This document shows, in pieces, positions 45,821-64,000 of a stretch of 64,000 nucleotides of DNA (position 1 is its first letter; every line of letters starts with the position of its first letter). This DNA comes from Sphingomonadales bacterium. GTDB taxonomy: Bacteria > Pseudomonadota > Alphaproteobacteria > Sphingomonadales > Sphingomonadaceae. The notes under the pieces were generated by a model, which was not told the DNA's origin, searched no databases, and saw only the letters and a list, made by a program, of their open reading frames with translations. The stretch is taken from assembly GCA_040004295.1 (NCBI GenBank), contig JBDUBD010000001.1, positions 128 to 64,127 on the forward strand. The letters are read 5' to 3'. The position numbers were made by a program, and so were the translations under genes.

Positions 45821-46423
45821 ATGGATCAGCTCAAGAAGTCTTCTTTGCGGAAGCTCGATCGACTATTTCCAGCTGCCACCCTGGCAGTTTTGGTTGTGGC
45901 GATGAGCGGATGTGGCCCCAAAAGCAGCTCGACGTCAGACGCGCGCGACACGGCGCAAACGCCTTACAAATCGGTTGCGAGCGTCAAGGAGCTTATGGAC
46001 TCGACGGTTGATCCAGCGGCGGACGGCGTTTGGGATGCAGTGGGCATTATCTCCAACGCCTCTGGGGTCACCAAACATGAGCCGCGCACCGACGAGGAGT
46101 GGCACGCGGTCCGCCGTCACGCGATGACCCTGATTGAATCGATGAATCTGGTGATGATGCCGGGCCGCCTTGCTGCACCACACGGAACGAAGGCCGGACT
46201 TGGCGAGCTTAGCCCGCAGCAGATTGACGCTGCGATCAAGGAAAACCGACCGGAATTCGATCAGTATGCCGGCGCGGTACGCGACTCAGCCGCCGAGGCG
46301 TTAAAAGCCATTGACCAAAAGGATACGGCTGCACTGACCCGGATCGGCGGCGACATCGATCAGCGCTGCGAAGCTTGCCACACCGTCTTTTGGTATCCGA
46401 ACTCCGCGAGTCCAGCCAAGTAG
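45821..46423 (+). CDS. Lipoprotein class II cytochrome c (c'/c556-like)
   Basis: Lipobox AMSGC, helical body, single C-terminal CEACH heme motif; start ATG 45821. Confidence 0.8.
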   Translation: MDQLKKSSLRKLDRLFPAATLAVLVVAMSGCGPKSSSTSDARDTAQTPYKSVASVKELMDSTVDPAADGVWDAVGIISNASGVTKHEPRTDEEWHAVRRHAMTLIESMNLVMMPGRLAAPHGTKAGLGELSPQQIDAAIKENRPEFDQYAGAVRDSAAEALKAIDQKDTAALTRIGGDIDQRCEACHTVFWYPNSASPAK

Positions 46424-46481
46424 TAGCCAGCCCGGCAGCGGATGTCTGGACCTGATCATCCCCAATGGTGCCGGGCTTGTC

Positions 46482-47051
46482 CTATTTGGATGCCGATCGC
46501 GACGCATCGTCGATGATGTAGCGCCAGCCACCGTCGGCCTGCTTGCGCATCACTTCGATACCACCGCCCGTCAGCTCCTGTTTGGCGCCTTCGGCACTGA
46601 CGAAATTCATCCGCCAGTGGTTGGTCGTTAACGCGACATCATTGTAAAGGACGTGCCGACGATTGCCGAGAACGATCTGTGGCTTGATGCTCAGCAACCC
46701 TTTGAGGTCTTCGTGGACCTTGGATTTGCCGATCAACGTGACTCCGTCGGGATTAACGTAGGTGACATCATCGACGTAGAGATCGACCAATCCCTCAAGG
46801 TCGCCGGTGTTGAAGCGTTCCTGCCAGGCGTCGTACAGCTTGTCGATGTCCGTTACGGGAGGGATGCGTCGCGCCGTCGCCGCGGTTGCTGCCCTTGGGG
46901 TGACGGCGATCCCGGCGGCAACGGCCCCGGCTGCCATGACTTTCAGAAAGCTCGCGCGTGTGATTTCCACCGTTGCTGAAGTGGATTGATCAAGCTGTGA
47001 CCGCTCACCTTGGTCAGCGTTTTCCCAGGCCTTGCGAATGGATTGGATCAC
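46482..47051 (-). CDS. SnoaL/DUF4440 (NTF2-fold) protein with a Tat-like leader
   Basis: WQERFNTGDLEGLVDLY and EVMRKQADGGWRYIID NTF2 pattern; leader TRASFLKVMAAGAVAAG. GTG start at 47051 follows GGAGG. Confidence 0.8.
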   Translation of the reverse strand: MIQSIRKAWENADQGERSQLDQSTSATVEITRASFLKVMAAGAVAAGIAVTPRAATAATARRIPPVTDIDKLYDAWQERFNTGDLEGLVDLYVDDVTYVNPDGVTLIGKSKVHEDLKGLLSIKPQIVLGNRRHVLYNDVALTTNHWRMNFVSAEGAKQELTGGGIEVMRKQADGGWRYIIDDASRSASK

Positions 47052-47214
47052 AGTTCGTACCTCCAACGATCATGTGCGACGGGCGAAGTCAGGGCTCGTC
47101 AGCCGTTAAATAGTCGCTAAGCTAGCAGGCTTGAACTGCATCCGCCGATCCCATCTTCGGCCGATTTTACGACCGTTTCGGCCTGCAGCGGGGCGCATGC
47201 CGTCGCATTTTTCA

Positions 47215-47248: not shown

Positions 47249-47258
47249 AAAGGCATAT

Positions 47259-49679
47259 TTAGCGGGTGCCGAAGGGAACCCGCAGCGTCGCACCATAGGT
47301 CGTGGGCGGTGCATAGATCGAGGTCACACCGAGAATGCCAAGATTGAGGGCATAGGCACGGTACGCCTTGTCGAAAACATTGCGCCCCCACACGGTCAGC
47401 GAGATGCCCGATGGCGTGTCGCGATAGGTGAGCGACGCGTTGGTGACGTTATAGGCTTTTTGCAGCGACCCCAGGCCGTTGGTTACTTCCAGGAATTGAT
47501 CGTCGTACCAGACGCCATCCACCTGCGCGGCCACATTTCCGTGCCCAACGTCAACATTGTAGCGCAGCAGATAGTTGAAGCTGAAGCGCGGAGCATTGGG
47601 CAACTCGACGCCCGTGATCGTCTTTTGCGGGAAGTCGCAGCGGAACACACCGCCCAGATTGGTGCAATACTGGGTGTTGGCAGCGCCGGGGACCAATTCC
47701 GGGCCAAACTGGACGTCGGTTGCCGGAATGCTGTCGACCGACGAGGTTTGCCATGTTGCCCCGAACACCGCATCGAAGCGCCGTGATGGCGACCAGAACG
47801 CTTCCAGTTCGGCACCGGTCGAATGGGCGTTGCTGTTGAAGACGTGGGGTACGCCGCCAGCCAGCGAGAAGGCCTGATAATCTTCATACGCGTAATGGTA
47901 CACAGTGCCGTTGAGGCGCAGCGTGCGATCCAGCAATGTCGTCTTGAACCCGGCCTCGAAACTGTTCAGCGTTTCGGGACGATGCTGGAAGTCGGCGGCG
48001 GCAATGTTCGACGACAGCGACCAATTGCCACCCTTGATGCCGCGATTCCACGATGCGAAGAGCAATGTTTGCGCGCTCGCCTGGAAATTGAGAGACACGC
48101 GTGCCGCCCAGTCGCCATAGGATATCTGGTTCGACCCCGGCACCACTGCAGCCAGATCCTTGTCGGTGAAAAGGACCTTGGGATTGGGCTGCGGTGCATA
48201 AGTGGGGTCGCTCAGGACATTGACGTAGTCGATAGACTTGTTGTCCTTGGAATAGCGGGCTCCCAGCGTCAGCGACAGCCGGTCGGTCAGCTTGATGTCG
48301 CCTTGTGCAAAGACCGACCAGTTCTTGGACGGAATTTTGTAGAACTGGGAAACCTGCGGCACCGAAAAGCCGCCGTTACCGGAAAGGGCCAAGTCGTAAA
48401 TCGGCGCGCCGGTCACGGCATGATCGCCATCGTATTTCATATCGAGGTAATAGGCCCCGATTTGCCACTTCAGGCGACTGGTGTCGCCGGACAGGCGCAG
48501 CTCTTGAGAAAACTGGTGAAATTTGAGCGTCGTATCGACATTGACGATCAGAAATGGGATCGCGTCGCCGTCTTCGGCATAAACCTTGTCCAGTGTAAGA
48601 TAATTGGTGATCGCGGTCAGGTTCGCACCGCCAAGCTTCCAGTTCAGTTCGGCCTGGTAACTGTTCGCCACCCGGTTCAGAGAGCCCTTGCGCTCGCCGA
48701 AATGGACCCATGGGGATGCCGGAAGGCCGGTCACTCCGTTGATCACACCATTCTGGGCGTCGCTCAGCCCGGCGGCATTGGTGTCGCAATAGCCATTGGG
48801 CAGGAAATTGCAGTTCTCGAAAACATAGCCACCAGTGGCAAGGTCGTTGTCTTCGGAATGCTTGTACCACAGGCTCACGGTCGCATCGGGTGACAGGTCG
48901 ATCTGTAAATTGACGCGAGCGGCCCAGCCATTCTTGCCGCCGAGATCCTGACCACTGCCGGGCAGGACGCCAAGACCGAGCGCGGTGGCATCTGTATCGC
49001 GCGACTTAATATAACCGTCGGCTTTCTCGAAACGGGTGGCCGCGCGTATGCGGACGCCCGGTGCCAGTTGTCCACCGACTGCACCCTCCAACGACCAGTC
49101 ATTGAAGCGACCGTAGTCGCCCTGGACATAGCCATTGAATTCGACCTTGCTGGCGTCCTCGCTGAGGTAATGGATCAGACCGCCGGTGGCGTTACGACCG
49201 AATAGCGTACCTTGAGGGCCGCGCAGGACTTCGACGCGCTTGATGTCGAACAACTGGCCCGACACGGCATTCATCGAGGCGATATAAGCATTGTCCTGAT
49301 ATACCGCGACCGGCGCTTCGAGATTGTCGGTGAAGTTGTTCTGCGAAATGCCGCGCAGGCTGAAGATCGTCAGGTTCGGTGACCAGGCATTGACCCGCAA
49401 GGCAGGGATTTGCTGAGTAATCTGCGTGGTATCGGTGATGCCCAGCCGATCGATCTGCTCGCCGGAAAAAGCGCTCATCGAAATCGGAACCTTCTGCAGG
49501 CTCTCGCTGCGCTTGTTGGCAGTGACCACGATTTCAGTGACCATGTTGCCGTCCGCTGACCCGCTTGCACCCGCATCGGCAGATGTAGTGCCCTGCGCCA
49601 CTGCCAGTGTTGGGAACGCCAGATACGAGCAGGCAAGCATGAGCGAGAGGCGTGATGTGGCGCGGAAGGTAAGATGCAT
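47259..49679 (-). CDS. TonB-dependent receptor
   Basis: Signal peptide, TonB box EIVVTA, EVLRGPQGTLFGRNATGG plug, NVFDKAY near the C-terminus; start ATG 49679. Confidence 0.95.
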   Translation of the reverse strand: MHLTFRATSRLSLMLACSYLAFPTLAVAQGTTSADAGASGSADGNMVTEIVVTANKRSESLQKVPISMSAFSGEQIDRLGITDTTQITQQIPALRVNAWSPNLTIFSLRGISQNNFTDNLEAPVAVYQDNAYIASMNAVSGQLFDIKRVEVLRGPQGTLFGRNATGGLIHYLSEDASKVEFNGYVQGDYGRFNDWSLEGAVGGQLAPGVRIRAATRFEKADGYIKSRDTDATALGLGVLPGSGQDLGGKNGWAARVNLQIDLSPDATVSLWYKHSEDNDLATGGYVFENCNFLPNGYCDTNAAGLSDAQNGVINGVTGLPASPWVHFGERKGSLNRVANSYQAELNWKLGGANLTAITNYLTLDKVYAEDGDAIPFLIVNVDTTLKFHQFSQELRLSGDTSRLKWQIGAYYLDMKYDGDHAVTGAPIYDLALSGNGGFSVPQVSQFYKIPSKNWSVFAQGDIKLTDRLSLTLGARYSKDNKSIDYVNVLSDPTYAPQPNPKVLFTDKDLAAVVPGSNQISYGDWAARVSLNFQASAQTLLFASWNRGIKGGNWSLSSNIAAADFQHRPETLNSFEAGFKTTLLDRTLRLNGTVYHYAYEDYQAFSLAGGVPHVFNSNAHSTGAELEAFWSPSRRFDAVFGATWQTSSVDSIPATDVQFGPELVPGAANTQYCTNLGGVFRCDFPQKTITGVELPNAPRFSFNYLLRYNVDVGHGNVAAQVDGVWYDDQFLEVTNGLGSLQKAYNVTNASLTYRDTPSGISLTVWGRNVFDKAYRAYALNLGILGVTSIYAPPTTYGATLRVPFGTR

Positions 49680-50049: not shown

Positions 50050-51276
50050 ATGTTGCATGTGGCTGTATCGAACGACGGGAACGATCGCGCGAGCCGTGAT
50101 GGTGCTCCACCTAACGTCGCCACATTGGTCGCCCGCGCACAAGCGATGATCCCTGTCCTGCGGGAGCGCGAAGACGGAGCGATCCGCAGCCGCCAGGTGC
50201 CGATCGAAACAATAGTCGATTTTCAGCAAGCAGGCTTTTTCAAGATCCTGCAGCCGCGGCGCTTCGGCGGCTACGAAATGTCTCCAGCGGTCTATTGTGA
50301 GGTGGCCAAGACGTTGGCCGAGGGCTGCATGGGCAGCGCCTGGGTCTATGGTGTCGTTGCCGTCCACAACTGGCAAATGGCCCTGTTCGATCCGCAAGCT
50401 GCCGAAGATGTTTGGGGCGATGATCCTTCGGTATTGATCAGTTCTTCCTACATGCCGACCGGCAAAGCAGTCAAAGTCGATGGCGGCTATCGTTTTAGCG
50501 GCCGATGGGCGTTTTCCAGCGGATCCGAACACTGCCAATGGGTGATCCTGGGTGCCAACATGATTGCCGACGACGGCGACGGGCAGCCAGAGCCTTACAA
50601 CTTCCTGGTGCCTCGCAGTGACTATGCGATCTTGGATACCTGGCACACCATGGGACTGTGCCCCACCGGCAGCAATGACATCGTGGTGGACGATGTTTTC
50701 GTGCCGTCGTATCGCGTGATACGCGAGCGTGACATGTTCAATCTGGCGTGCCCAGGTCATGCTCTGAACACCGGCGAACTCTATCGCATTCCTTTTGCGC
50801 AACTGTTCAACCGGACGGTTTCGACGACGTCACTGGGTTCGCTCCGTCGTGCACTGGACACGTTCGTGGAATCAACCCGGCAAAAGCGGGCCACCTACAC
50901 CGGACTGCGGCTTGCAGGGGACACGACGATCCAGGAAGCCGTCGCCGATGTCATGTTGACGCTGCACGACCTCGAACTGCGCTTCGCCGCCGACCTGGCC
51001 GAACTGGACAGCCGCGCGGCAAGCGGCGATTGGCCGATCGAACGGCGTGCTGTGCTCGGGTACCACACCACTGCCGTTGTCTCTCGTTGCGTCGAGGCGA
51101 TCGACAAGCTGATGCTGTTTTCCGGCGGCAAGGCCATTTACCTTGGCAACGTCGTTCAGCGAGCGTTCCTTGATATCCACTGCGCACGCGGACACGTTGC
51201 CAACAATCCTTATCCCTATGCGCGTAACGTGGGCGGACTGGCCTTCGGGTTCGAAAACAACTGCATGGATCTTTGA
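50050..51276 (+). CDS. Group D flavin-dependent monooxygenase, oxygenase component (ACAD fold, HsaA-like)
   Basis: FFKILQPRRFGG, VHNWQMALF, ISSSYMP, GRWAFSSG..HC, TGSND, RAFLDIH. Confidence 0.88.
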   Translation: MLHVAVSNDGNDRASRDGAPPNVATLVARAQAMIPVLREREDGAIRSRQVPIETIVDFQQAGFFKILQPRRFGGYEMSPAVYCEVAKTLAEGCMGSAWVYGVVAVHNWQMALFDPQAAEDVWGDDPSVLISSSYMPTGKAVKVDGGYRFSGRWAFSSGSEHCQWVILGANMIADDGDGQPEPYNFLVPRSDYAILDTWHTMGLCPTGSNDIVVDDVFVPSYRVIRERDMFNLACPGHALNTGELYRIPFAQLFNRTVSTTSLGSLRRALDTFVESTRQKRATYTGLRLAGDTTIQEAVADVMLTLHDLELRFAADLAELDSRAASGDWPIERRAVLGYHTTAVVSRCVEAIDKLMLFSGGKAIYLGNVVQRAFLDIHCARGHVANNPYPYARNVGGLAFGFENNCMDL

Positions 51277-52439: not shown

Positions 52440-52505
52440 TTTGCGCAAGGACTTTGACGGTAATTTCAGGGCCGCTCTTCGAGCAGCGGCATGACCGGGA
52501 GAAAT

Positions 52506-55628: not shown

Positions 55629-55679
55629 CAAAAATGTCTCCTGATCTGCGGCCCCGCCGCGAGGCGGCGGGCGCATCGA

Positions 55680-57446: not shown

Positions 57447-58955
57447 ATGACCGATAAGTCCGCAACATTTGCTCAGGCCGAAGCGCTGGGTGCCGCCATG
57501 GCGAAACGCCCTTTGGGGCTGATCATCGATGGCAAGTCGGTGCCGGCGCAGTCGGGTAAAACATTTGCCACGCTCAACCCGGCGACTGGCAAGGAAATCT
57601 GTCAGGTGGCGGAGGGCGGCGTTGCCGATGTCGATCTGGCGGTCAAGGCGGCCCGCAAGGCTTTGATCGATCCTTCCTGGCGCGACATGAGCGCGGTTGA
57701 TCGGTCGAAGCTACTCAACCGCCTGGCCGATCTCATCGAGCGGGATGCCGCAGAGTTGGCCGTGCTGGAATGCATGGACAACGGCAAGCCGGCGACGCTC
57801 ACAATGGGGGTCGAGATCGAAGGGTCGATCAAGACCTTTCGCTATTTTGCTGGCTGGCCGACCAAATTCGGTGGGGAAACACTGCCGGTTTCACCGCGCA
57901 GCGGGGCCAAGATTCTCAATTACACCGTGCGCGAGCCAGTCGGCGTTTGCGGGTTGATCGTGCCGTGGAACTACCCCATGTCGATGGCGGCGTGGAAGGT
58001 GGCTCCGGCGTTGGCCGCAGGCTGCACCGTTATCCTGAAACCCGCCGAGCAAACCCCGCTGACCGCGTTGCGTCTGGCCGAACTTGCGCTTGAAGCGGGC
58101 GTGCCGCCGGGCGTTTTCAACGTCATCACCGGTTTTGGCGAAGCGGGCGCGGCTCTGGTCGATCACCCCGGTGTCGACAAGGTCGCCTTCACTGGTTCGA
58201 CGGAAGTTGGCAAAGCGATTGTACGGGGTTCGACCGGGAACCTGAAAAAGGTGAGTCTGGAACTGGGTGGGAAGTCGCCGCAGATCGTTCTGCCGGATGC
58301 CGATCTCGATGCTGCCGCAGCTTCGATCGCTTCAGGCATTTTCTTCAATCAAGGACAGACATGCACCGCGGGCTCGCGATTGTATGCCCATGCTTCAATC
58401 CATGACGATCTGCTCAGTCGTATCGCCGATCATGCTGCACGCCTGACCATTGGCAACGGCCTCGACCCCACGGTCAATTTCGGTCCGCTGGTGTCACAGG
58501 AGCAATGGGACCGCGTAAATTCCTACGTCGAAATCGGCAAAGCCGAAGGTGCCGAGGTGATGATTGGTGGCAGCCGACCCAAGGGACTCGGGGAGGGCTT
58601 CTTTTTCGAGCCGACAATCATGGCCAACGCCGGACGTGACATGCGTATCGTGCGCGAAGAAATATTTGGTCCGGTGTTGAGTGCGCTTAGCTGGAGTGAT
58701 CCGGCCGATCTGGTCGCCCAGGCCAATGATTCCGATTTTGGCCTCTCGGCCGGAATCTGGACCAACGATCTGAGGCAGGCACACCGACTGGCCAGCGCGG
58801 TCAAGGCGGGCACGGTGTGGATCAACTGCTTTAACCTTGTCGACAATGCGACGCCGTTCGGCGGCTTCAAACAGTCGGGTTGGGGCCGCGAGCATGGTCG
58901 TCAGGCCATGGAACTCTACAGCGAAATCAAGAGTATATGGGTTAATTTGAGCTGA
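57447..58955 (+). CDS. NAD-dependent aldehyde dehydrogenase (arylacetaldehyde-DH-like)
   Basis: PWNYP, FTGSTEVG, LELGGKSP (Glu), FNQGQTCTAG (Cys), EEIFGPV, PFGGFKQSG. Confidence 0.96.
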   Translation: MTDKSATFAQAEALGAAMAKRPLGLIIDGKSVPAQSGKTFATLNPATGKEICQVAEGGVADVDLAVKAARKALIDPSWRDMSAVDRSKLLNRLADLIERDAAELAVLECMDNGKPATLTMGVEIEGSIKTFRYFAGWPTKFGGETLPVSPRSGAKILNYTVREPVGVCGLIVPWNYPMSMAAWKVAPALAAGCTVILKPAEQTPLTALRLAELALEAGVPPGVFNVITGFGEAGAALVDHPGVDKVAFTGSTEVGKAIVRGSTGNLKKVSLELGGKSPQIVLPDADLDAAAASIASGIFFNQGQTCTAGSRLYAHASIHDDLLSRIADHAARLTIGNGLDPTVNFGPLVSQEQWDRVNSYVEIGKAEGAEVMIGGSRPKGLGEGFFFEPTIMANAGRDMRIVREEIFGPVLSALSWSDPADLVAQANDSDFGLSAGIWTNDLRQAHRLASAVKAGTVWINCFNLVDNATPFGGFKQSGWGREHGRQAMELYSEIKSIWVNLS

Positions 58956-58993: not shown

Positions 58994-60028
58994 ATGAGCA
59001 AGACCTTGATAGTCGCGACCGATGGGCAAGCCGTGATGCGGACCCACGATGACGGCAAGAGCTGGTATCGGATCAATATTCAGCAGGATCTGGAATATGA
59101 CGATCGCGTCCGGTGTTTGCTCGTTGATCCTGCCAACCCCGAAGCGTTATTTGCCGGTGCAGAAAAGGGGCTGTTCTACAGTGCCGACCAAGGCGTGCAC
59201 TGGAGCCGGGTCGACTGCGCGCTGAACGGATTTGCGGTATGGAAGCTGGTGGCGAGCGAAAGCGATCCCAAGGTGCTTTATGCCGGGACAGGCGCTCCGT
59301 CGCTCTCGATCCTGTTCCGTTCGCGCGATGGTGGCAAGGTCTGGGAGCGGTCCACGCTCGAGATGCCTGAATTCTGCGCCGGGGTAAACCGCCCGCGGAT
59401 GCTGGCGCTGGCTGTCGATCCGGACGATGCGAACGACGTGTGGGCGGGGATCGAGGAAGGCGGCCTGCACCGCAGCCGCGACGGCGGCAATAACTGGGAA
59501 CGGATCGACACCACATGGTCCGAGTTCGGCGGAAATTCCGACCTGCACGACATCATGGTCCTCAAGCAGGATGATGGATCGAAGGTTCACCTCGCGCTGA
59601 CCGTCATCGCGCTTTATCGATCGACGGACGACGGCAAGACCTGGACGCGCTTGCCCGCCAAGGAAAGCTGGGGCTTGCGGTATTCGCGACTGCTCATGCG
59701 CAAGCCGGGCAGCGGTCGGGAGATTGCTGTCGGCATCGGTGACGGTACTCCCGGAACACAGGCTGCGATCCTGACCTCGTCCGATGCGGGTCTGACCTGG
59801 GCCAAGGCTGATCTCGATACCCCGTCGAACTCGTGCATGTGGGCTTTCGGTACGAACCCTGCCGATCCCGATTTCCAGCTTGCGGCCAGCAAATTCGGGT
59901 ATCTCTATCGCTCGACCAATGGCGGTAAGTCGTGGATCAAGGAATGGCGCGAGTTTAACGAGATCACCGATCTCGCCTGGGTGCCGGGTGTGCCGACCGA
60001 CTTGGGATTGCCGCATGTCACGAACTGA
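58994..60028 (+). CDS. Cytoplasmic Asp-box (BNR) beta-propeller protein, function unknown
   Basis: Seven SxDxGxxW repeats; no signal peptide. Confidence 0.8.
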   Translation: MSKTLIVATDGQAVMRTHDDGKSWYRINIQQDLEYDDRVRCLLVDPANPEALFAGAEKGLFYSADQGVHWSRVDCALNGFAVWKLVASESDPKVLYAGTGAPSLSILFRSRDGGKVWERSTLEMPEFCAGVNRPRMLALAVDPDDANDVWAGIEEGGLHRSRDGGNNWERIDTTWSEFGGNSDLHDIMVLKQDDGSKVHLALTVIALYRSTDDGKTWTRLPAKESWGLRYSRLLMRKPGSGREIAVGIGDGTPGTQAAILTSSDAGLTWAKADLDTPSNSCMWAFGTNPADPDFQLAASKFGYLYRSTNGGKSWIKEWREFNEITDLAWVPGVPTDLGLPHVTN

Positions 60029-60500
60029 GAAATCGCCGATCCACGTCAGCAAGATCGCCCATGTCGTTCTGTTCGTCAGGGATCCGGAGGCTTCGGCGAA
60101 GTGGTACGAGGACGTGCTCAATATGACGATTGTCACCCGTGCGGCCGATGGGCCGTACAAGGGGGGCGTCTTCCTGAGTTTCGGGGTCAGCGATCACGAC
60201 ATTGCCTTGTTTCCGGGCGATCCCGGCGCAAGCAGGGGCAAGGAGTTCGAGCACATCGGATTGATCATGGCTGGAACGAGCATGGACGATCTGCGCCGCA
60301 ATCACGCCTTTTTCACCGAGCGCGGTGTGGAGATTGCCGAGATCCTCAACCACGGGGTGTCTACCGGCATCTACTTCTACGATCCGGACGGTCATATGCT
60401 GGAGGTTTTCTGCCAGCACATTCCCCAGAACGGAGCCTCGCAAGTCGAATTGCGGCGCAACGAGGGGCAGGCCGACCCGGTCGACCCGATCTCGCTTTAA
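60015..60500 (+). CDS. Single-domain VOC protein, probable extradiol dioxygenase
   Basis: H16, H61, H80, H113, Y120, E130 follow the order and spacing of the type I extradiol catalytic domain. Confidence 0.75.
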   Translation: MSRTEKSPIHVSKIAHVVLFVRDPEASAKWYEDVLNMTIVTRAADGPYKGGVFLSFGVSDHDIALFPGDPGASRGKEFEHIGLIMAGTSMDDLRRNHAFFTERGVEIAEILNHGVSTGIYFYDPDGHMLEVFCQHIPQNGASQVELRRNEGQADPVDPISL

Positions 60501-60578: not shown

Positions 60579-61184
60579 ATGACGACCTACGCACCGAACT
60601 TCGGTCCATTCCACATCCGCAAATGGTTCAGTCAGGTCGAGGAGATCTGGGCCGGCGAAACCGGTGTCGCCGCTGATGGTGCTCCGCTGATCAAGTATAT
60701 GATCGCGGCTTGCATCAAGAATCCCTATTCCGGCGAGTTCATCGAAGATCTGTCGGCTTGGATCGATGCTTCGCCCGCGCTGGGAACGGAAATCGGCCGA
60801 CGGCTCAACGCGCTTTCGGGCGGGGCCAGGATCGAAAGCTATGGCAAGGCCATCATGGTCGGGATCGATGGAGAATACGAACATGGCAATGCCCTGCTGA
60901 CCAATCCAGCCGCCAATCCCGTGCGTGACGCGATAGGCGGCGGTGCCTCTTGGGTTCCCTCAACCGGAAAGCGCGGCGTTCCCGGCACGATCCTCGACAT
61001 CCCTTTCGGTCACAAGGACGCGCTGTACGTTCGCTCGCACTACGACACGATGAGCGTCTCGTTCGGCGACGCGCCCAATCGTGACGAAGTGATCGTGTGC
61101 TGGGCCTTTGCCACGCGCGGTCGCCTCAATGCGCGCCTGGGCGGCCTGAAAGCCGAAGACGCCGTAGGCAATGGCCTGACCTGA
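60579..61184 (+). CDS. DUF1185 (PF06684 'amino acid synthesis' family) protein
   Basis: IKNPYSG, IESYGKAIMVGIDGEYEHG, IPFGHKDA..RSHYD, DAP..DE, GRLNARLGG. Confidence 0.85.
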   Translation: MTTYAPNFGPFHIRKWFSQVEEIWAGETGVAADGAPLIKYMIAACIKNPYSGEFIEDLSAWIDASPALGTEIGRRLNALSGGARIESYGKAIMVGIDGEYEHGNALLTNPAANPVRDAIGGGASWVPSTGKRGVPGTILDIPFGHKDALYVRSHYDTMSVSFGDAPNRDEVIVCWAFATRGRLNARLGGLKAEDAVGNGLT

Positions 61185-61187
61185 ACG

Positions 61188-62111
61188 ATGGCCGATCAAC
61201 GCCTCGCCCATTCGGACGCGCCGCCGCTTCCTGTCCGGCTTCTCGACGGGGAGCGGACACAGCGGATCGCTAACGGTAACCTGGGCATTCAGGTGCGCGA
61301 GTGGGGAAAACCTGACGCACCCGCCATGGTCCTGCTGCACGGTCTGCGCGGCTATTCCGGTACTTGGCGCAATTTTGCCGCTGCGTTTTCGGATCGGTGG
61401 CACATGATCGCGCTGGATGCGCGCGGGCGGGGTGACAGCGACTGGGACGTCGATCGCAACTATTACACCGATGCTTATCTGAGAGATCTGGAGGCGGTGG
61501 TCGATGGACTGGCCCTCGATCGCTTTGTGTTGGTCGGGCATTCGATGGGCGGAACGACATCCTATTGCTACGCCGCTAAGCACCCGCAGCGTCTGAATGC
61601 TCTGATTGTGGAAGACATCACGGCCGGATCTTCTGTTGCGGGTGCGGGTTTCGAGCGGATAGTGGCGGAAATGGCCGCACTGCCGACGCGCTTCGACAAC
61701 TGGGCCGGGGCGCGTGCCTATTGGCGCAAGCTGCGACCGGGCGTTTCCCATGCAGCAATCGAGGAACGCCTATTTGAATCGATGTGTGCTGGCGATGGCG
61801 ACACTGTGGTCTGGCGTTACGACGCTGAGGGGATCGCCGCGACCCGCATTGCACCGGATCCGTCTCGCCTGGTGGATCTGCACCCGGTCATTGGTGCGAT
61901 ACGCACGCCGACTCTGATCATCCGTGGCGGACGTTCCGACTTCTGCAACCTGACCAAGGTGGAGGAACTGGAAGCCGCCAATGCGATGCTGTCGCATGCC
62001 AGCGTGGCGGACGCTTCGCACTACGTCCACGATGACGCGCCGGAAAGTTACCTGCGTCTGGTGGAAGGCTTCCTGGCCGGACTCAAAGTCGGCCGGGTCG
62101 CGCCGAATTGA
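61188..62111 (+). CDS. Alpha/beta-fold hydrolase
   Basis: LLHG oxyanion segment, DARGRGDS, GHSMG nucleophile elbow, SHYVH catalytic His. Confidence 0.9.
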   Translation: MADQRLAHSDAPPLPVRLLDGERTQRIANGNLGIQVREWGKPDAPAMVLLHGLRGYSGTWRNFAAAFSDRWHMIALDARGRGDSDWDVDRNYYTDAYLRDLEAVVDGLALDRFVLVGHSMGGTTSYCYAAKHPQRLNALIVEDITAGSSVAGAGFERIVAEMAALPTRFDNWAGARAYWRKLRPGVSHAAIEERLFESMCAGDGDTVVWRYDAEGIAATRIAPDPSRLVDLHPVIGAIRTPTLIIRGGRSDFCNLTKVEELEAANAMLSHASVADASHYVHDDAPESYLRLVEGFLAGLKVGRVAPN

Positions 62112-62125
62112 CAGGATGACGATCA

Positions 62126-63727
62126 ATGACTGACCAGACCATCGTTCAGGGTGCCGTCACGACGCGGCTCGGCGCGGACCTGCTGCTCGACAGCCTGTAT
62201 CGTGGTGGCGCACGGATATGCTTTGCCAATCCGGGGACGACCGAGTTGGGGCTGGTGAGCGCGTTGGCGCGGGACGGGCGCATTCGCTGCGTCCTCAGCC
62301 TGTTTGAAGGTGTCTGCACCGGCGCAGCAGATGGATATGCGCGCGTTTCCGGTCATGTCCCGCTGACATTGCTGCATCTTGGTCCCGGCTTTGCCAACGG
62401 GATTGCCAACCTGCACAACGCCCGCCGTGCGGGGTCGCGGATCATCAACTTGATTGGCGACCATGCCACCTGGCATTTGCCTTACGATGCGCCGCTGACT
62501 TCTGACATCTATTCTTTGGCTAGTCCGGTTTCGCGTGATGTTATCTACCTCGAAAGCGTCGCCGCGATTTCCGGCGGCGTGCGGCGGGCGTTTGCCGCGA
62601 CCAACCTAGCCGAGGGTGGGGCGGCCACGATCATTTTTCCTACCGATGCGGTCGATGCGCCTACACCGATAGATACCGCGCCCATCGTCGAAGTGCCATA
62701 TTTGCCGACGCCCGTTGCCGAGGCGACGATCGAGGCCGCTGCTGCGACTTTGTCGGAAGGTGGCGATACGATTGTCCTGCTCGGCGGCAATGCCCTGACT
62801 GAAGGTGGTATTCGTGCCGGTGCCCAACTGGCGGAGAAACTTGGCGGGCGGCTGCTGATGGAGCCGTATCCTGCGATCGTGACGCTGGGCGGCGACCTGC
62901 CCGCAGTCGAACGACAAGCCTATTTTCCTGACGACGTGATCGCACAGATGGGTGAAGCGCGCGTGGTGTTGGCCGGCGCACGAATGCCGATCAGCTATTT
63001 CGGCTACGAGGGTTGGCCCAGCCAGCTCGTTCCCGACAGCCGTCTGGTGCGCCTCGCAGAACCGGGAGAGGACGCTGTGGGCGCACTCAAGGCGCTGCTG
63101 ACATGGATCGGCGCCGCCGCCGGCCAAACCGTTGTTGCTACCTCGGCCGCAGCGACACCGGCGTCTGCGGACGCCTCGCCGGTCGCTCTGTCGCCAGCAT
63201 CGGTTGTCGAAGAGCTTCTGGCGCAATTGCCGCAGGATTCGATCATCTCGCTCGAGGGCTCGACCCTTGGAGGGCCATGGCTCCGCAATGCCTATCGGGC
63301 ACGCCGCCACCGGGTCATGACCAACACGGGCGGCGCCATCGGGCAGGGGCTGCCTTGCGCGGTCGGCGCTGCCCTCGCCGAGCCGGGTGCGCAGGTGATT
63401 TCGTTACAGTCCGACGGCAGTGCCCAATACACGCTGCAATCGCTGTGGACCATGGCGCGCGAGAAGCTCAAGGTCACTGTGATCATAGCCGCCAACCATC
63501 GCTATGCCATCCTCCAGACAGAGCTGAACCGGGCTGCCGCTCCTCTTGAGGACAGCGTGATTGCCAGCCTGACCAAGCTCGACAAACCGCGGGTGGACTG
63601 GGTCGCGCTGGCCACCGGCTATGGCGTGGAAGCCGTGCGGGCGTCCACCAACGCCGAGCTGGCCGCAGCATTGCAACGGGGCCTGGCGCTCGAAGGCCCG
63701 TTGCTGATCCAGGCAGAGCTGCCGTGA
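62126..63727 (+). CDS. ThDP-dependent enzyme ('acetolactate synthase large subunit'-like decarboxylase/lyase family)
   Basis: CFANPGTTE, LFEGVCTGAADGYAR, LHLGPG, variant ThDP motif SDGS...NHRYAIL. Confidence 0.88.
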   Translation: MTDQTIVQGAVTTRLGADLLLDSLYRGGARICFANPGTTELGLVSALARDGRIRCVLSLFEGVCTGAADGYARVSGHVPLTLLHLGPGFANGIANLHNARRAGSRIINLIGDHATWHLPYDAPLTSDIYSLASPVSRDVIYLESVAAISGGVRRAFAATNLAEGGAATIIFPTDAVDAPTPIDTAPIVEVPYLPTPVAEATIEAAAATLSEGGDTIVLLGGNALTEGGIRAGAQLAEKLGGRLLMEPYPAIVTLGGDLPAVERQAYFPDDVIAQMGEARVVLAGARMPISYFGYEGWPSQLVPDSRLVRLAEPGEDAVGALKALLTWIGAAAGQTVVATSAAATPASADASPVALSPASVVEELLAQLPQDSIISLEGSTLGGPWLRNAYRARRHRVMTNTGGAIGQGLPCAVGAALAEPGAQVISLQSDGSAQYTLQSLWTMAREKLKVTVIIAANHRYAILQTELNRAAAPLEDSVIASLTKLDKPRVDWVALATGYGVEAVRASTNAELAAALQRGLALEGPLLIQAELP

Positions 63728-64000
63728 GTGAGGCATCGCGCGTTGCTATCCTGACCGGCGGCAGTGGCGGAATTGTTCCCGGCATTGCCGAAGAACTGGC
63801 TCGGGCGGGTTTCGCGATCGTGCTCACCGCGCGTGGCATCGATGCGCTTCGGGCCGCAGCCGACCGGATAGGCGCCAACACCGGCATCGCGATTGCTGCC
63901 TTTGCGTCCGATGCCCGCGACGTAGCTTCGTCGAAGGCGCTTGTCGCGCAGGTACTGGACAGGTTTGGTCGGGTCGACGTCCTTGTGAATGCCGCTGCAA
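63724..64000 (+). CDS. SDR-family oxidoreductase, 5' partial
   Basis: VAILTGGSGGIVPGIA, LDRFGRVDVLVNAA; GTG overlaps the ThDP-enzyme stop; runs off the window. Confidence 0.85.
   Translation, partial: MSEASRVAILTGGSGGIVPGIAEELARAGFAIVLTARGIDALRAAADRIGANTGIAIAAFASDARDVASSKALVAQVLDRFGRVDVLVNAAA

What the first reader, a model, noticed from the sequence alone, without database searches (positions are those of the whole stretch)
45821..64000. Unassigned ~18 kb catabolic system on an island, possibly degrading an aromatic or heterocyclic amine by ring cleavage
Seen: 17 apparently intact genes around three divergent promoter regions. They cover uptake (TBDR, MFS), amine handling (omega-transaminase, SSAT-like GNAT), aldehyde oxidation (ALDH), ring hydroxylation (HsaA-like FMO), ring cleavage (VOC with extradiol residues), hydrolysis (alpha/beta hydrolase), hydration (MhpD-like) and 2-oxo-acid cleavage (ThDP enzyme). 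Four further proteins have no assignable role: the propeller, DUF1185, the catalytically altered SDR and SnoaL. Established: each named family does such chemistry in meta-cleavage and biogenic-amine pathways. The set does not match hsa, hpa/hpc, mhp, iac, nic/pic or hin as I know them; there is no Rieske oxygenase and no MhpE/F aldolase pair. Inference: amine to aldehyde to acid, hydroxylation, extradiol cleavage, then a non-standard lower pathway.
Basis: partly seen in the sequence, partly recalled or inferred. Interest (0 to 1): 0.85.

Follow-up and report, generated by a model that had tools for sequence, protein, structure and literature searches.

The report
Unassigned aromatic-amine breakdown gene island
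This is a real, horizontally acquired gene cluster of about 20 kb, conserved in many soil and water bacteria, that most likely imports and breaks down a phenolic amine by ring cleavage using several enzymes nobody has characterised; its substrate is still unknown.

Summary
The genes co-occur far beyond chance. Of 34 related loci of at least 12 kb (Sphingomonadales, Azospirillaceae, Steroidobacteraceae, Phenylobacterium), 31 keep SDR–ALDH–propeller–VOC–DUF1185–hydrolase next to the ThDP enzyme. A reduced core recurs in Pseudomonas, Acinetobacter, Burkholderia and others.

The cluster is cut by the contig end. An identical public contig adds the rest of a second SDR, cytochrome b561, a succinate-semialdehyde dehydrogenase and a PcaC-like protein.

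It lies on an island. None of 24 same-genus genomes has it, synteny breaks at about 39.4 kb, a truncated IS3 element lies 0.5 kb to its left, and GC drops.

The cytochrome c', SnoaL and GNAT genes are local additions, not conserved members.

No characterised pathway matches. My best reading (confidence 0.4) is a variant homoprotocatechuate-type route. An arylethylamine or arylpyruvate gives an arylacetaldehyde, then an arylacetate, then a catechol. Single-domain extradiol cleavage and a DUF1185–hydrolase step follow, ending at succinate semialdehyde and succinate.

A hydroxypyridine-type substrate remains a serious rival. Four conserved proteins (propeller, DUF1185, two triad-less SDRs) and the ThDP enzyme have no proven role.

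The parts
44559..45337 (+). Truncated IS3-family element (OrfA plus an N-terminal fragment of OrfB). It marks the left border of the island.
   Evidence: Pfam HTH_Tnp_1, HTH_21 and the start of rve. The same stretch matches 8 copies in a same-genus genome.
45821..46423 (+). Cytochrome c'-like lipoprotein. Local addition, not conserved with the cluster.
   Evidence: PF01322, 28 bits; C-terminal CxxCH and a lipobox. No counterpart in 80 related loci.
46482..47066 (-). SnoaL/DUF4440 protein with a probable export signal. Local addition.
   Evidence: Pfam and TIGR02246. Found in only 1 of 34 related loci.
47259..49679 (-). TonB-dependent outer-membrane receptor, divergent from the monooxygenase gene.
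   Evidence: Plug and barrel domains. No siderophore or haem equivalog reached. Orthologue at 74-83% identity in the same position in 10 of 10 sphingomonad genomes. Start and signal peptide read.
50050..51276 (+). Oxygenase component of a two-component, group-D (acyl-CoA-dehydrogenase fold) flavin monooxygenase. HsaA / C2-HpaH-like. No reductase gene in the cluster.
   Evidence: NF045629 HsaA 349.7 bits (cut-off 450); NF045920 p-hydroxyphenylacetate 3-hydroxylase 227.5 bits. Adjacent to the cluster in 13 of 20 genomes. Replaced by an MhpA-like FAD hydroxylase in beta- and gammaproteobacterial versions.
51349..52293 (-). LysR-type regulator, divergent from the aminotransferase gene.
   Evidence: HTH_1 and LysR_substrate. 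Conserved in 20 of 34 loci within the flanks. Conserved ATTGTT / CTGTTGC boxes lie in the intergenic region.
52491..53864 (+). Class III omega-amine/omega-amino-acid:pyruvate aminotransferase.
   Evidence: PF00202, 306 bits; NF004767, 583 bits, above its cut-off. Best PDB relatives are the 5kr6-type '4-aminobutyrate transaminase' entries, 3gju and 3fcr. 28 of 34 loci, median 83% identity.
53930..55111 (+). MFS inner-membrane transporter.
   Evidence: PF07690. 24 of 34 loci.
55173..55676 (-). GNAT acetyltransferase. Variable accessory gene.
   Evidence: PF00583. Only 2 of 34 loci.
55680..56483 (-). SDR1: Rossmann-fold SDR without the Ser-Tyr-Lys triad (GG...SGMRN). The most conserved protein of the cluster.
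   Evidence: Alignment. 34 of 34 loci, median 89% identity. The closest solved structure, 6jh7, shares the motif.
56498..57271 (-). MhpD/HpaH/DmpH-like FAH-family hydratase or decarboxylase (start approximate).
   Evidence: TIGR03220 80 bits, TIGR02312 68 bits. Keeps the ExE...E block and Lys of E. coli MhpD. 28% identical to MhpD.
57447..58955 (+). ALDH1: arylacetaldehyde-dehydrogenase-like aldehyde dehydrogenase. First gene of the long operon.
   Evidence: NF045735 StyD 622 bits, HpaE 528 bits. 32 of 34 loci, median 87% identity.
58994..60028 (+). Cytoplasmic 7-bladed Asp-box (BNR) beta-propeller of unknown role. Overlaps the VOC gene by 14 bases.
   Evidence: Pfam. AlphaFold model pLDDT 92; best PDB match 3b7f (uncharacterised), then GH74 and Ycf48. 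Invariant C128, R135, E154-E155, R170, D172, D183, H185, Y230, R232, K300. A second propeller-VOC pair on a Novosphingobium plasmid.
60015..60500 (+). Single-domain VOC protein, predicted extradiol ring-cleavage dioxygenase.
   Evidence: PF00903. The C-terminal domain of catechol 2,3-dioxygenase matches at E 1e-13. An extradiol PROSITE-like signature is present in all 19 sequences compared, the window's plus 18 orthologues.
60579..61184 (+). DUF1185 / PF06684 (Bacillus chorismate-mutase-like fold). Always directly upstream of the hydrolase.
   Evidence: PF06684, 208 bits. PDB 2qtp, 3byq. 35% identical to the DUF1185 of an Acinetobacter tgn-like cluster, which has the same DUF1185-then-hydrolase order.
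61188..62111 (+). Alpha/beta-fold serine hydrolase, not a canonical MCP hydrolase.
   Evidence: Ser-Asp-His present, but GHSMGG instead of GNSMGG and Tyr in place of MhpC Trp264. Best PDB 3kxp, alpha-(N-acetylaminomethylene)succinate hydrolase, E 5e-20.
62126..63727 (+). ThDP-dependent enzyme of the benzoylformate-decarboxylase/acetolactate-synthase superfamily (PRK07586 family).
   Evidence: NF005760, 559 bits. Best PDB relatives are BFD. It keeps Glu47, His70 and GDG...N, but His281 is Phe and Ser26 is Thr.
63724..64000 (+). SDR2 (5' part): second triad-less SDR, 44% identical to SDR1. It continues past the window and contig end. It is followed on an identical contig by cytochrome b561, SSADH-like ALDH2 and a PcaC-like CMD protein.

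Best explanation
The cluster is one LysR-controlled, horizontally mobile catabolic system for a phenolic or catecholic arylalkylamine of the tyramine, dopamine or octopamine kind, and for the matching 2-oxo acid or aryl acid. All steps below are inferred from families and gene context. None is shown by experiment.

1. The TonB-dependent receptor and the MFS carrier take the compound up.
2. The class III aminotransferase turns the primary amine into an arylacetaldehyde. The BFD-like ThDP enzyme makes the same kind of aldehyde by decarboxylating the corresponding arylpyruvate.
3. The StyD-like ALDH1 oxidises the aldehyde to the arylacetate.
4. The two-component flavin monooxygenase adds the second hydroxyl group to give a catechol. 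An MhpA-like FAD enzyme does this in beta- and gammaproteobacteria.
5. The single-domain VOC dioxygenase opens the ring by extradiol cleavage. It is translationally coupled to the BNR propeller and always paired with it.
6. The DUF1185-hydrolase pair, the MhpD/HpaH-like enzyme and the PcaC-like protein trim the ring-fission product.
7. The pathway ends at succinate semialdehyde, which the SSADH-like ALDH2 oxidises to succinate. This is the end point of the homoprotocatechuate pathway.
8. Cytochrome b561 may protect against superoxide from autoxidising polyphenols.

The two triad-less SDRs and the propeller have no assignable step.
For: Conserved unit:
- 31 of 34 loci of at least 12 kb keep all six core neighbours of the ThDP gene. 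12 more distant loci keep the core.
- Genes overlap or lie 3-38 bases apart from ALDH1 to CMD, apart from a 78-base gap before DUF1185.
- ATTGTT(G/A)C-type boxes recur in all three divergent promoter regions and in orthologous regions of other genera.

Amine to aldehyde to acid:
- A class III aminotransferase accompanies the core in every lineage examined except a reduced Bradyrhizobium variant, which has none in its flanks, although the subfamily differs. It is embedded and translationally coupled to ThDP in Azospirillum- and Steroidobacter-type loci.
- It forms an AT-ALDH-cytochrome b operon beside the core in Pseudomonas.
- One variant carries instead a kinase plus a class III AT-fold protein, which I read as a phospho-lyase pair able to give an aldehyde from an amino alcohol.
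- The ALDH always scores best against phenylacetaldehyde dehydrogenase StyD (610-644 bits).

Phenol hydroxylation:
- Two unrelated flavoprotein hydroxylases occupy this role. One is HsaA/C2-HpaH-like; the other is MhpA-like (NF004831, 732 bits, above its cut-off).

Extradiol cleavage:
- The signature H...Y...E block is conserved in all VOC orthologues.

Lower pathway:
- The MhpD metal and Lys residues are kept.
- An SSADH is conserved at the operon end in alpha-, beta- and gammaproteobacterial versions (625-735 bits to TIGR01780).

Other:
- TBDR and cytochrome b561 lie in the same operon as ThDP in some versions.
Against:
- No HpaI or MhpE aldolase is in the cluster, so how succinate semialdehyde would be released is unexplained.
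- The hydrolase lacks MCP-hydrolase signature residues. Its nearest solved relative works on a pyridine-ring fission product.
- The DUF1185-hydrolase-SSADH combination is otherwise known from the trigonelline (N-heterocycle) pathway.
- The ThDP enzyme lacks His281 of BFD, and its substrate is unknown.
- The aminotransferase is closest to omega-amino-acid/GABA:pyruvate enzymes. Together with the SSADH it could simply be a GABA-type end module.
- Five conserved proteins remain without a role in this scheme.
- A TonB-dependent receptor is not obviously needed for a 140-Da amine.
Confidence: 0.4

Rival explanations
1. The substrate is an N-heterocycle: a hydroxypyridine-type compound carrying an aminomethyl or aminoethyl group, or a vitamin-B6 or trigonelline-like compound. 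The flavin monooxygenase and the VOC dioxygenase hydroxylate and open the pyridine ring. The hydrolase, with DUF1185, removes the N-acyl or formyl group from the resulting enamine. Succinate semialdehyde is released and oxidised, as in the trigonelline, pyridine and vitamin-B6 pathways.
For: - The best solved relative of the hydrolase is alpha-(N-acetylaminomethylene)succinate hydrolase of vitamin-B6 degradation.
- The order DUF1185, hydrolase, with an SSADH and a CMD protein at the end, is also the layout of the tgn-like cluster found in 18 of 161 Acinetobacter species. DUF1185 is 35% identical between the two.
- The DUF1185 protein TgnF stimulates succinate-semialdehyde oxidation, according to PMC7913881.
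- Earlier scan notes report DUF1185 travelling with ring-opening hydrolases, and one operon that also holds a ThDP enzyme.
Against: - The hydrolase matches the tgn-like hydrolase only in the generic N-terminal part (27% over 99 residues).
- There is no luciferase-like oxygenase and no flavin reductase.
- The hydroxylases that replace each other (HsaA-like, MhpA-like), the MhpD-like enzyme and the StyD-like ALDH are typical of carbocyclic phenol pathways.
- The VOC has the catechol extradiol signature.
Confidence: 0.2
2. The true substrate is a larger conjugate in which a catecholic or phenolic acyl group is linked to a polyamine or amino acid. Examples are catechol-amide xenosiderophores and plant hydroxycinnamoyl- or benzoyl-amines. 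It is taken up through the TonB-dependent receptor. The amine part goes through aminotransferase, ALDH and SSADH (putrescine to GABA to succinate). The aromatic part goes through hydroxylase, VOC and hydrolase.
For: - A TBDR is associated with the core in Sphingomonadales, Azospirillum, Steroidobacter-type loci and Burkholderia.
- Cytochrome b561, PepSY_TM and further TBDRs lie downstream.
- Lineage-specific neighbours are polyamine-type enzymes. These are GNAT here; acetylpolyamine-amidohydrolase-like protein and amino-acid permease in Acinetobacter; amine ABC transporter, gamma-glutamyltransferase and agmatinase in Burkholderia; and glutamine-synthetase-like protein plus GATase next to a second propeller-VOC pair in Novosphingobium.
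- PDB relatives of the aminotransferase include polyamine and putrescine:pyruvate enzymes.
Against: - No dedicated amidase is conserved.
- The accessory genes differ between lineages and may be unrelated neighbours.
- The TBDR matches no siderophore-receptor equivalog.
- This is entirely inferential.
Confidence: 0.12
3. The ThDP enzyme is an aroylformate (hydroxybenzoylformate) decarboxylase in a mandelate-type side-chain route. A beta-hydroxylated arylethylamine gives a hydroxymandelate, then an aroylformate, then an aryl aldehyde, then a hydroxybenzoate. The ring is hydroxylated and cleaved afterwards.
For: - The closest characterised relatives of the ThDP enzyme are benzoylformate decarboxylases, and Glu47 and His70 are kept.
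- The gene order ThDP-ALDH-SDR opens the operon in Pseudomonas and Acinetobacter. This recalls decarboxylase, aldehyde dehydrogenase and 2-hydroxy-acid dehydrogenase.
- One variant has a kinase plus a class III AT-fold protein that I read as an amino-alcohol phospho-lyase pair.
Against: - BFD His281 and Ser26 are not conserved.
- The SDRs lack the catalytic Tyr and Lys needed for an ordinary dehydrogenase.
- The ALDH resembles phenylacetaldehyde dehydrogenases more than the other ALDH classes scored.
- A hydroxybenzoate route does not lead to succinate semialdehyde.
Confidence: 0.1
4. There is no single substrate. The region is a mosaic of separately acting modules that travel together because they are useful in the same habitats. 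The modules would be an amine/GABA module (AT, ALDH, SSADH), an aromatic ring-cleavage module, and an iron-uptake module.
For: - In Pseudomonas and Acinetobacter the aminotransferase module has its own AraC regulator and the core its own IclR regulator.
- The aminotransferases of alpha and gamma versions are not orthologous (28-36% identity).
- One variant lacks DUF1185, hydrolase and ThDP, and another lacks VOC.
- PepSY_TM and TBDR2 look like an ordinary iron-uptake pair.
Against: - In Azospirillum- and Steroidobacter-type loci the aminotransferase, ThDP, TBDR and cytochrome b genes lie in one tightly packed operon with DUF1185 and the hydrolase.
- The same association recurs in several orders despite rearrangement.
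- Shared sequence boxes lie in the three promoter regions.
Confidence: 0.13

Closest known systems
Homoprotocatechuate (3,4-dihydroxyphenylacetate) meta-cleavage pathway with tyramine/dopamine feeder reactions (hpa/hpc genes of E. coli and Pseudomonas putida; recalled from the literature)
   Same: The logic is the same: amine to arylacetaldehyde, to arylacetate, to hydroxylation, to extradiol cleavage, to an MhpD/HpaH-type hydratase or decarboxylase, to succinate semialdehyde oxidised by an SSADH. ALDH1 scores 528 bits against HpaE and 622 against StyD. The FAH-family protein scores 68 bits against HpaH. The FMO scores 227 bits against the C2-type p-hydroxyphenylacetate hydroxylase.
   Different: No protein reaches an hpa equivalog cut-off. 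There is no HpaI aldolase, HpaF isomerase or two-domain/LigB-type HpaD. The system uses an aminotransferase, not an amine oxidase. It adds a ThDP enzyme, a DUF1185-hydrolase pair, a BNR propeller, two triad-less SDRs, cytochrome b561 and a TBDR.
mhp (3-hydroxyphenylpropionate) and hsa (steroid ring A/B) meta-cleavage modules
   Same: Both have a flavin hydroxylase (MhpA-like in beta/gamma versions, HsaA-like here), an extradiol dioxygenase, a serine hydrolase and an MhpD/HsaE-like hydratase.
   Different: The VOC has a single domain. The hydrolase is 24% identical to MhpC and lacks Asn109 and Trp264. The FAH protein is 28% identical to MhpD. There is no MhpE/F or HsaF/G pair and no HsaB reductase in the cluster.
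Trigonelline catabolic cluster (tgn) of Acinetobacter baylyi ADP1, seen here as a tgn-like cluster in 18 of 161 Acinetobacter species
   Same: The DUF1185 gene lies directly upstream of an alpha/beta hydrolase gene. An ALDH is present, with an SSADH followed by a CMD-family gene at the end. DUF1185 is 35% identical, SSADH 53% and CMD 63%.
   Different: tgn has a luciferase-like oxygenase with a flavin reductase, an NCS1 permease and a GntR regulator. It has no VOC, propeller, ThDP enzyme, SDR or aminotransferase. The two hydrolases are not orthologous.
hcd genes for 7-hydroxycoumarin / 3-(2,4-dihydroxyphenyl)propionate in Pseudomonas mandelii 7HK4 (PMC6222606, PMC7913881)
   Same: hcd has an FAD hydroxylase of about 62 kDa that the authors relate functionally to MhpA. 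It also has an extradiol dioxygenase, apparently the 20-kDa band on their gel; an atypical 31-kDa hydrolase with low similarity to known MCP hydrolases; and a co-induced DUF1185 gene (hcdD).
   Different: The sequences could not be compared. No homologue other than the 86-92% identical orthologues of the Pseudomonas VOC was found at E below 1e-15 in 301 Pseudomonas species. hcd has no ThDP enzyme, propeller, SDR, SSADH or aminotransferase.
Mandelate pathway (benzoylformate decarboxylase plus benzaldehyde dehydrogenase)
   Same: A BFD-superfamily ThDP enzyme lies next to an aromatic-type ALDH. Glu47, His70 and the ThDP/Mg motif are kept.
   Different: Similarity is low: 125 bits against PDB BFD, and NF005485 scores 181 bits against a cut-off of 493. 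His281 is Phe and Ser26 is Thr. There is no mandelate racemase or FMN dehydrogenase.

Membership tests
Meta-cleavage pathway of the mhp/hsa type | Extradiol dioxygenase with the His/His/Glu iron site and the catalytic His/Tyr signature | tested here: met
   A PROSITE-like extradiol signature is present in the window VOC and in 18 orthologues. It is strict in the Pseudomonas, Acinetobacter, Parvibaculaceae (L042) and Rhodospirillales (L060) sequences. The first position is relaxed (Leu) in the other alphaproteobacterial and the Steroidobacteraceae sequences. Only the C-terminal-type domain is present (160 aa).
Meta-cleavage pathway of the mhp/hsa type | MCP C-C hydrolase: Ser-His-Asp triad plus GNSMGG Asn and the His-Trp pair that bind the dienoate | tested here: not met
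   The triad is present, but the motif reads GHSMGG, MhpC Trp264 is Tyr and Cys261 is Ala or Ser. Identity to MhpC is 24%.
Meta-cleavage pathway of the mhp/hsa type | 2-hydroxypentadienoate hydratase (MhpD/HsaE) with its metal-binding Glu residues and Lys | tested here: met
   The ExE...E block and the Lys align with E. coli MhpD. However, the score is only 80 bits against TIGR03220, whose cut-off is 409.
Meta-cleavage pathway of the mhp/hsa type | Aldolase / acylating acetaldehyde dehydrogenase pair (MhpE/F, HsaF/G) in the cluster | tested here: not met
   Absent from the window, from the extension L003 and from all related loci. Homologues exist only on a separate 3.2-kb contig of the MAG.
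Homoprotocatechuate (hpa) pathway | HpaI-type aldolase releasing pyruvate and succinate semialdehyde | tested here: not met
   No PF03328 gene is in the cluster. Two PF03328 members lie elsewhere in the genome (C33, C63) without any link to it.
Homoprotocatechuate (hpa) pathway | Succinate-semialdehyde dehydrogenase as the terminal step | tested here: met
   ALDH2 on L003 scores 625 bits against TIGR01780 (cut-off 646). The Acinetobacter counterpart scores 736 bits, and the Burkholderia one is annotated as SSADH.
Trigonelline (tgn) cluster | DUF1185 gene directly upstream of the ring-fission-product hydrolase, with an SSADH | tested here: met
   The gene order is the same here and in the Acinetobacter tgn-like cluster. 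DUF1185 is 35% identical, E 6e-25.
Trigonelline (tgn) cluster | Two-component luciferase-like ring-opening oxygenase with flavin reductase; hydrolase orthologous to the tgn hydrolase | tested here: not met
   There is no LLM or Flavin_Reduct gene. The hydrolases share only 27% over 99 N-terminal residues.
Benzoylformate decarboxylase | Catalytic Ser26, His70, His281 together with Glu47 and the GDG-N ThDP/Mg motif | tested here: inconclusive
   Glu47, His70 and GDG...N are kept. Ser26 is Thr and His281 is Phe. The residue roles are recalled from the BFD literature. NF005485 scores 181 bits against a cut-off of 493.
Classical SDR dehydrogenases | Ser-Tyr-Lys catalytic triad (YxxxK) | tested here: not met
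   SDR1, SDR2 and all orthologues, including Pseudomonas, Acinetobacter and Burkholderia, read N(I/V)GGLT...SG(M/L)RN. The Rossmann motif is kept. PDB 6jh7 shares this.
Genomic island | Absent from close relatives, with a synteny break, a mobile-element remnant and deviating composition | tested here: met
   0 of 24 same-genus genomes have the ThDP orthologue. Synteny ends at about 39.4 kb, and the HPPD block lies elsewhere in relatives. A truncated IS3 element lies at 44.56-45.34 kb. GC drops from 0.66 to 0.59. Homologous clusters lie on megaplasmids or secondary replicons.
Genomic island | tRNA insertion site and integrase | tested here: not met
   There is no tRNA in the window, and no integrase was found between 38.7 and 47 kb. 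The right border is beyond the contig.

The most novel reading that the evidence does not exclude
The cluster encodes a TonB-dependent route for consuming iron-binding catechol amines or catechol-amide conjugates, such as catecholamines, xenosiderophore fragments or plant phenol-polyamine amides. It would be built on three undescribed enzyme solutions:
- a propeller plus single-domain VOC two-protein ring-cleavage dioxygenase;
- a DUF1185-hydrolase pair that releases the succinate-semialdehyde precursor;
- a triad-less SDR and BFD-like ThDP lower pathway that replaces the usual aldolase.
Probability: 0.12. Interest if true: 0.85.

Novelty: new variant of a known kind. Interest (0 to 1): 0.62.

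Why it matters
The cluster is widespread but patchy. It occurs in many Sphingomonadales, Azospirillum relatives and Steroidobacteraceae, in about 10% of sampled species of one Pseudomonas genus, in Burkholderia secondary replicons and in some Acinetobacter. It is highly conserved, with SDR1 at about 90% identity across genera. It is evidently exchanged horizontally, yet every database name for its proteins is generic or misleading.

Identifying its substrate would do four things:
- assign functions to five protein families that currently have none: PF06684/DUF1185, a cytoplasmic Asp-box propeller, a triad-less SDR subfamily, the PRK07586 ThDP family, and a non-canonical hydrolase;
- correct the mass mis-annotation as 'acetolactate synthase' and 'glycosyl hydrolase';
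- probably reveal how common rhizosphere and aquatic bacteria use a class of phenolic amines;
- test whether DUF1185 is a general partner of ring-fission-product hydrolases.

Tried and rejected
1. Names from large protein databases for the ThDP enzyme and the propeller gave only generic labels.
2. Literature searches found no description of this cluster. I searched DUF1185/PF06684, TgnF, PDB codes 6JH7/9U42/3B7F, octopamine/hydroxymandelate, and tyramine/dopamine with Sphingomonadaceae. The trigonelline paper itself (PMC5948990) is not held.
3. Structure prediction of the propeller gave a confident model (pLDDT 92). Its only fold relatives are an uncharacterised protein (3b7f), GH74 enzymes and Ycf48, so it gives no catalytic clue.
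4. I tried to link the VOC to HcdB of Pseudomonas mandelii. A search of 301 species of that Pseudomonas genus found only the 86-92% identical orthologues of the Pseudomonas VOC used as query, and no distant homologue.
6. Naming the host genus from a window protein failed. The ORF chosen was an over-extended HemC and returned no organism names.
7. A plasmid hit (H1) carried no annotation.
8. Readings rejected:
   - A steroid hsa cluster. There is no HsaB, C, D, F or G equivalogs, and the FMO is below the HsaA cut-off.
   - A siderophore or haem receptor role for the TBDR. All equivalogs are far below cut-off.
   - Biosynthetic acetolactate synthase for the ThDP enzyme. There is no small subunit, and TIGR00118 scores 133 bits against a cut-off of 538.
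   - GNAT, SnoaL and cytochrome c' as pathway members. They are not conserved.

Full report
**What is in the window**

In order they are:
- a cytochrome c'-like lipoprotein
- a SnoaL/DUF4440 protein
- a TonB-dependent receptor (TBDR)
- an HsaA-like acyl-CoA-dehydrogenase-fold flavin monooxygenase (349.7 bits to NF045629, below its 450 cut-off; 227.5 bits to the C2-type p-hydroxyphenylacetate hydroxylase)
- a LysR regulator
- a class III aminotransferase
- an MFS carrier
- a GNAT
- an SDR
- an MhpD/HpaH-like FAH-family protein
- an ALDH that scores best against phenylacetaldehyde dehydrogenase StyD (622 bits)
- a BNR propeller
- a single-domain VOC protein
- DUF1185 (PF06684)
- an alpha/beta hydrolase
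- a ThDP enzyme of the benzoylformate-decarboxylase/acetolactate-synthase superfamily (NF005760, 559 bits)
- the start of a second SDR

Reading the intergenic DNA moved several starts. The TBDR starts at 49679 with a signal peptide, the FMO at 50050 behind a GAGGAG, and ALDH1 at 57447.

**The cluster is cut by the contig end**

The window is bases 128-64127 of a 64,361-base contig. The contig belongs to a 2.65-Mb, 153-contig MAG with 62% GC.

A Logan contig from run SRR26386576 is identical over the last 6,240 bases of the window and continues the operon. After the ThDP gene come SDR2 (261 aa), cytochrome b561 (190 aa) and ALDH2 (475 aa). ALDH2 scores 625 bits against SSADH subfamily TIGR01780. 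A PcaC-like CMD protein follows (141 bits to TIGR02425), then PepSY_TM and two TBDRs.

From ALDH1 to CMD the genes overlap or lie 3-38 bases apart, apart from a 78-base gap before DUF1185. This looks like one ten-gene operon. The MAG itself lacks this continuation.

**Co-occurrence**

A scan of one genome per prokaryotic species, using the ThDP protein as query, returned 80 loci. I mapped all window proteins onto them by tblastn.

| Group of loci (at least 12 kb) | Number | Neighbours kept |
|---|---|---|
| ThDP at least 55% identical (Sphingomonadales, Azospirillum/Nitrospirillum/Niveispirillum, Steroidobacteraceae, Phenylobacterium) | 34 | 31 hold all of SDR1, ALDH1, propeller, VOC, DUF1185 and hydrolase; the other three lack one or more of these, in some cases because the contig ends |
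| ThDP 43-54% identical (Pseudomonas, Acinetobacter, Parvibaculaceae, Propionivibrio, Rhodospirillales, Bradyrhizobium) | 12 | Most of the same neighbours, rearranged |
| Binataceae and others | 21 | Only a ThDP paralogue |

Median identities in the first group are unusually high: SDR1 89%, ALDH1 87%, aminotransferase 83%, DUF1185 82%.

The FMO fell outside the 10-kb flanks, so I searched 20 of those genomes directly. It is adjacent in 13, within about 30 kb in three, distant in one and absent in three. In ten of ten upstream regions fetched, the orthologous TBDR (74-83% identity) sits divergently beside it.

The cytochrome c', SnoaL and GNAT genes are found in 0, 1 and 2 of the 34 loci. They are not conserved parts.

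**Variants in other classes**

In Pseudomonas, Acinetobacter and Burkholderia the core is an IclR-controlled operon. Its order is ThDP, ALDH, SDR, propeller, VOC, DUF1185, hydrolase, then an MhpA-like FAD hydroxylase (NF004831, 732 bits, above its cut-off). An MhpD-like protein, an SSADH and CMD follow where present.
- Burkholderia has a divergent TBDR, and a cytochrome b gene with a class III aminotransferase nearby.
- Pseudomonas KNUC1026 has an AraC-controlled aminotransferase-ALDH-cytochrome b operon next to the core.
- In Azospirillum- and Steroidobacter-type loci one operon reads DUF1185, hydrolase, aminotransferase, ThDP, TBDR, cytochrome b. The aminotransferase and ThDP genes overlap.
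- One variant lacks DUF1185, hydrolase and ThDP. Behind ALDH-propeller-VOC it carries a kinase and a class III AT-fold protein. These match the two ends of the PRK06148/PRK06149 fusion proteins. From memory, I take these to be amino-alcohol kinase/ammonio-phospho-lyase pairs.
- A Novosphingobium megaplasmid has a second propeller-VOC pair beside an AraC regulator, a glutamine-synthetase-like protein and a class I amidotransferase.

Prevalence is patchy:
- 29 of 301 species of one Pseudomonas genus
- 2 of 161 Acinetobacter species
- in an even sample of 400 genomes of the class, only four besides the window's own genome have a propeller homologue at E up to 1e-50, and none exceeds 45% identity

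**The island claim**

None of 24 same-genus genomes has the ThDP orthologue. DNA comparison with 25 congeners shows conserved synteny only up to about window 39.4 kb. The VOC-HPPD-MarR block at 39.5-41.4 kb lies elsewhere in relatives. Nothing from 41.5 kb onward is shared except a 0.7-kb stretch that is present in eight copies in one relative.

That stretch is a truncated IS3-family element at 44559-45337. GC falls from about 0.66 to about 0.59 at 40 kb. No tRNA or integrase was found. Homologous clusters lie on Novosphingobium megaplasmids, on Sphingobium chromosome 2 and on a Burkholderia 880-kb replicon.

The island reading is well supported. The right border is unknown.

**Residue-level checks**

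- The VOC and 18 orthologues carry the extradiol ring-cleavage signature, H-x(5-7)-[LIVMF]-Y-x2-D-P-x-G-x(2,3)-E. The protein has a single domain of about 160 aa.
- The hydrolase has Ser-Asp-His but reads GHSMGG, not the GNSMGG of MCP hydrolases. It has Tyr where E. coli MhpC has Trp264. Its best solved relative is alpha-(N-acetylaminomethylene)succinate hydrolase of vitamin-B6 degradation (3kxp, E 5e-20).
- The FAH-family protein keeps the ExE...E block and Lys of MhpD.
- Both SDRs and all their orthologues lack the Ser-Tyr-Lys triad (GG...SG[ML]RN) but keep the nucleotide-binding motif. The nearest structure, 6jh7, has the same peculiarity and no published function that I could find.
- Against BFD, the ThDP enzyme keeps Glu47, His70 and the GDG...N motif. 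It has Thr for Ser26 and Phe for His281.
- The propeller models confidently as a 7-bladed Asp-box fold (pLDDT 92). It has invariant polar residues (C128, R135, E154-E155, R170, D172, D183, H185, Y230, R232, K300). It resembles only an uncharacterised Cupriavidus protein, GH74 enzymes and Ycf48.
- The aminotransferase is closest to omega-amino-acid/GABA:pyruvate and amine:pyruvate enzymes.

**Regulation**

Alignments of orthologous intergenic regions show conserved boxes.
- The LysR/aminotransferase region has ATTGTT(A/G)C and CTGTTGC.
- The FAH/ALDH1 region has GCATATGCAACAA and TATTGTTTACA.
- The TBDR/FMO region of the window has ATTGTTGCA, and 8 of 10 orthologous regions have ATTGTT or its complement; in seven of them it is the extended ATTGTT(G/A/T)(C/A) form.

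This fits one regulator acting on all three units. It is weak evidence, because AT-rich words are expected in intergenic DNA.

**How it most likely works**

Four arguments carry the model.
1. Two unrelated flavoprotein phenol hydroxylases replace each other in an otherwise orthologous core. This points to hydroxylation of a phenol as a fixed step.
2. A VOC with the extradiol signature is always present. It is always paired with the propeller.
3. The ALDH is always StyD-like. It is always accompanied by an enzyme that makes an aldehyde from an amine or an amino alcohol, while the ThDP enzyme could make the same aldehyde from a 2-oxo acid. In several lineages the aminotransferase and ThDP genes are translationally coupled, or ThDP directly precedes the ALDH.
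4. An SSADH closes the operon in three classes. Succinate semialdehyde is the hallmark product of the homoprotocatechuate pathway.

From these I propose the following route. An arylethylamine or arylpyruvate gives an arylacetaldehyde, then an arylacetate, then a catechol. Extradiol cleavage follows, then trimming by the DUF1185-hydrolase pair, the MhpD/HpaH-like enzyme and CMD, ending at succinate semialdehyde and succinate. Cytochrome b561 and the TBDR would fit an autoxidisable, iron-binding catechol. All steps are inference. I put 0.4 on this.

**Rivals**

The main rival, at 0.2, is a hydroxypyridine-type substrate. The order DUF1185, hydrolase, with SSADH and CMD at the end is exactly the layout of the tgn-like cluster I found in 18 Acinetobacter species. 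DUF1185 is 35% identical between the two. The hydrolase's nearest structure acts on a pyridine fission product. Earlier scan notes also describe DUF1185 as a companion of ring-opening hydrolases. Against it, the two hydrolases are not orthologous, and the hydroxylases, the hydratase and the ALDH are of carbocyclic-pathway types.

The other rivals are:
- a catechol- or phenol-polyamine conjugate taken up through the TBDR (0.12)
- a mandelate-type role for the ThDP enzyme (0.10)
- a mosaic of independent modules (0.13)

**Comparison with known systems**

No protein except generic subfamilies reaches an equivalog cut-off for hpa, mhp, hsa, xyl/dmp or mandelate enzymes. No aldolase, Rieske oxygenase or flavin reductase is in the cluster.

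The MAG does have MhpD/F/E homologues (51, 71 and 72% identical to E. coli) on a 3.2-kb contig, and an MhpC-like gene on another. A borrowed lower pathway therefore cannot be excluded.

The system works like a meta-cleavage pathway for a biogenic amine. It is not a member of any characterised one.

**Verdict**

- The island and co-occurrence claims are strongly supported.
- The substrate is open.

This is a new variant of a known kind of system. It contains five conserved proteins of unknown role, and it is widely enough distributed to be worth experimental work.

Noticed in passing
window 44559-45337: Truncated IS3-family insertion sequence (OrfA plus the first 144 residues of OrfB). A same-genus genome (G041) holds eight copies of the matching stretch.
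   Followed up: partly
window 34137-34225: A repeat of about 90 bp, 83-88% identical, is present in many copies across same-genus genomes and once more in this MAG (contig C81). It looks like a REP/MITE-like element.
   Followed up: no
window 39506-41641: A VOC protein, 4-hydroxyphenylpyruvate dioxygenase and a MarR regulator form a block. In congeners this block lies at a different chromosomal place, so the rearrangement or island edge may start at about 39.5 kb.
   Followed up: partly
window 41768-43474 and 44034-44495: A 568-aa ORF without any Pfam match, and a 153-aa protein consisting only of a LytTR DNA-binding domain. Both lie inside the non-syntenic stretch.
   Followed up: no
L101 (Novosphingobium sp. 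KACC 22771 plasmid) 22639-27365: A second propeller-VOC pair (58% and 42% identical to the window proteins) lies next to an AraC regulator, a glutamine-synthetase-like protein and a class I amidotransferase. These look like a PuuA/PuuD-like amine gamma-glutamylation pair. A TBDR and a 729-aa amidohydrolase lie upstream.
   Followed up: partly
L155 (unnamed Acinetobacter genome) 2-10529: A tgn-like cluster: GntR, then DUF1185, hydrolase, flavin reductase, luciferase-like monooxygenase, ALDH, NCS1 permease, a 404-aa protein with no Pfam match, SSADH and CMD. An SSADH-CMD pair also ends the Acinetobacter version of the core cluster (L097).
   Followed up: partly
G000 contigs C34 (3.2 kb) and C80 (7.3 kb): Canonical MhpD, MhpF and MhpE homologues (51, 71 and 72% identical to E. 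coli) and an MhpC-like gene lie on very short contigs of the MAG. They may be fragments of another catabolic island, or mis-binned.
   Followed up: no
L158 11615-13915: A separate kinase (APH fold) and a class III AT-fold protein match the N- and C-terminal parts of the roughly 1000-aa PRK06148/PRK06149 fusion proteins. They stand behind ALDH-propeller-VOC in place of the omega-transaminase.
   Followed up: partly
L028/L098 11852-14111: In Azospirillum sp. B4 the TBDR that follows the ThDP gene is split into two ORFs (482 and 288 aa). It is probably a pseudogene or a sequencing frameshift.
   Followed up: no
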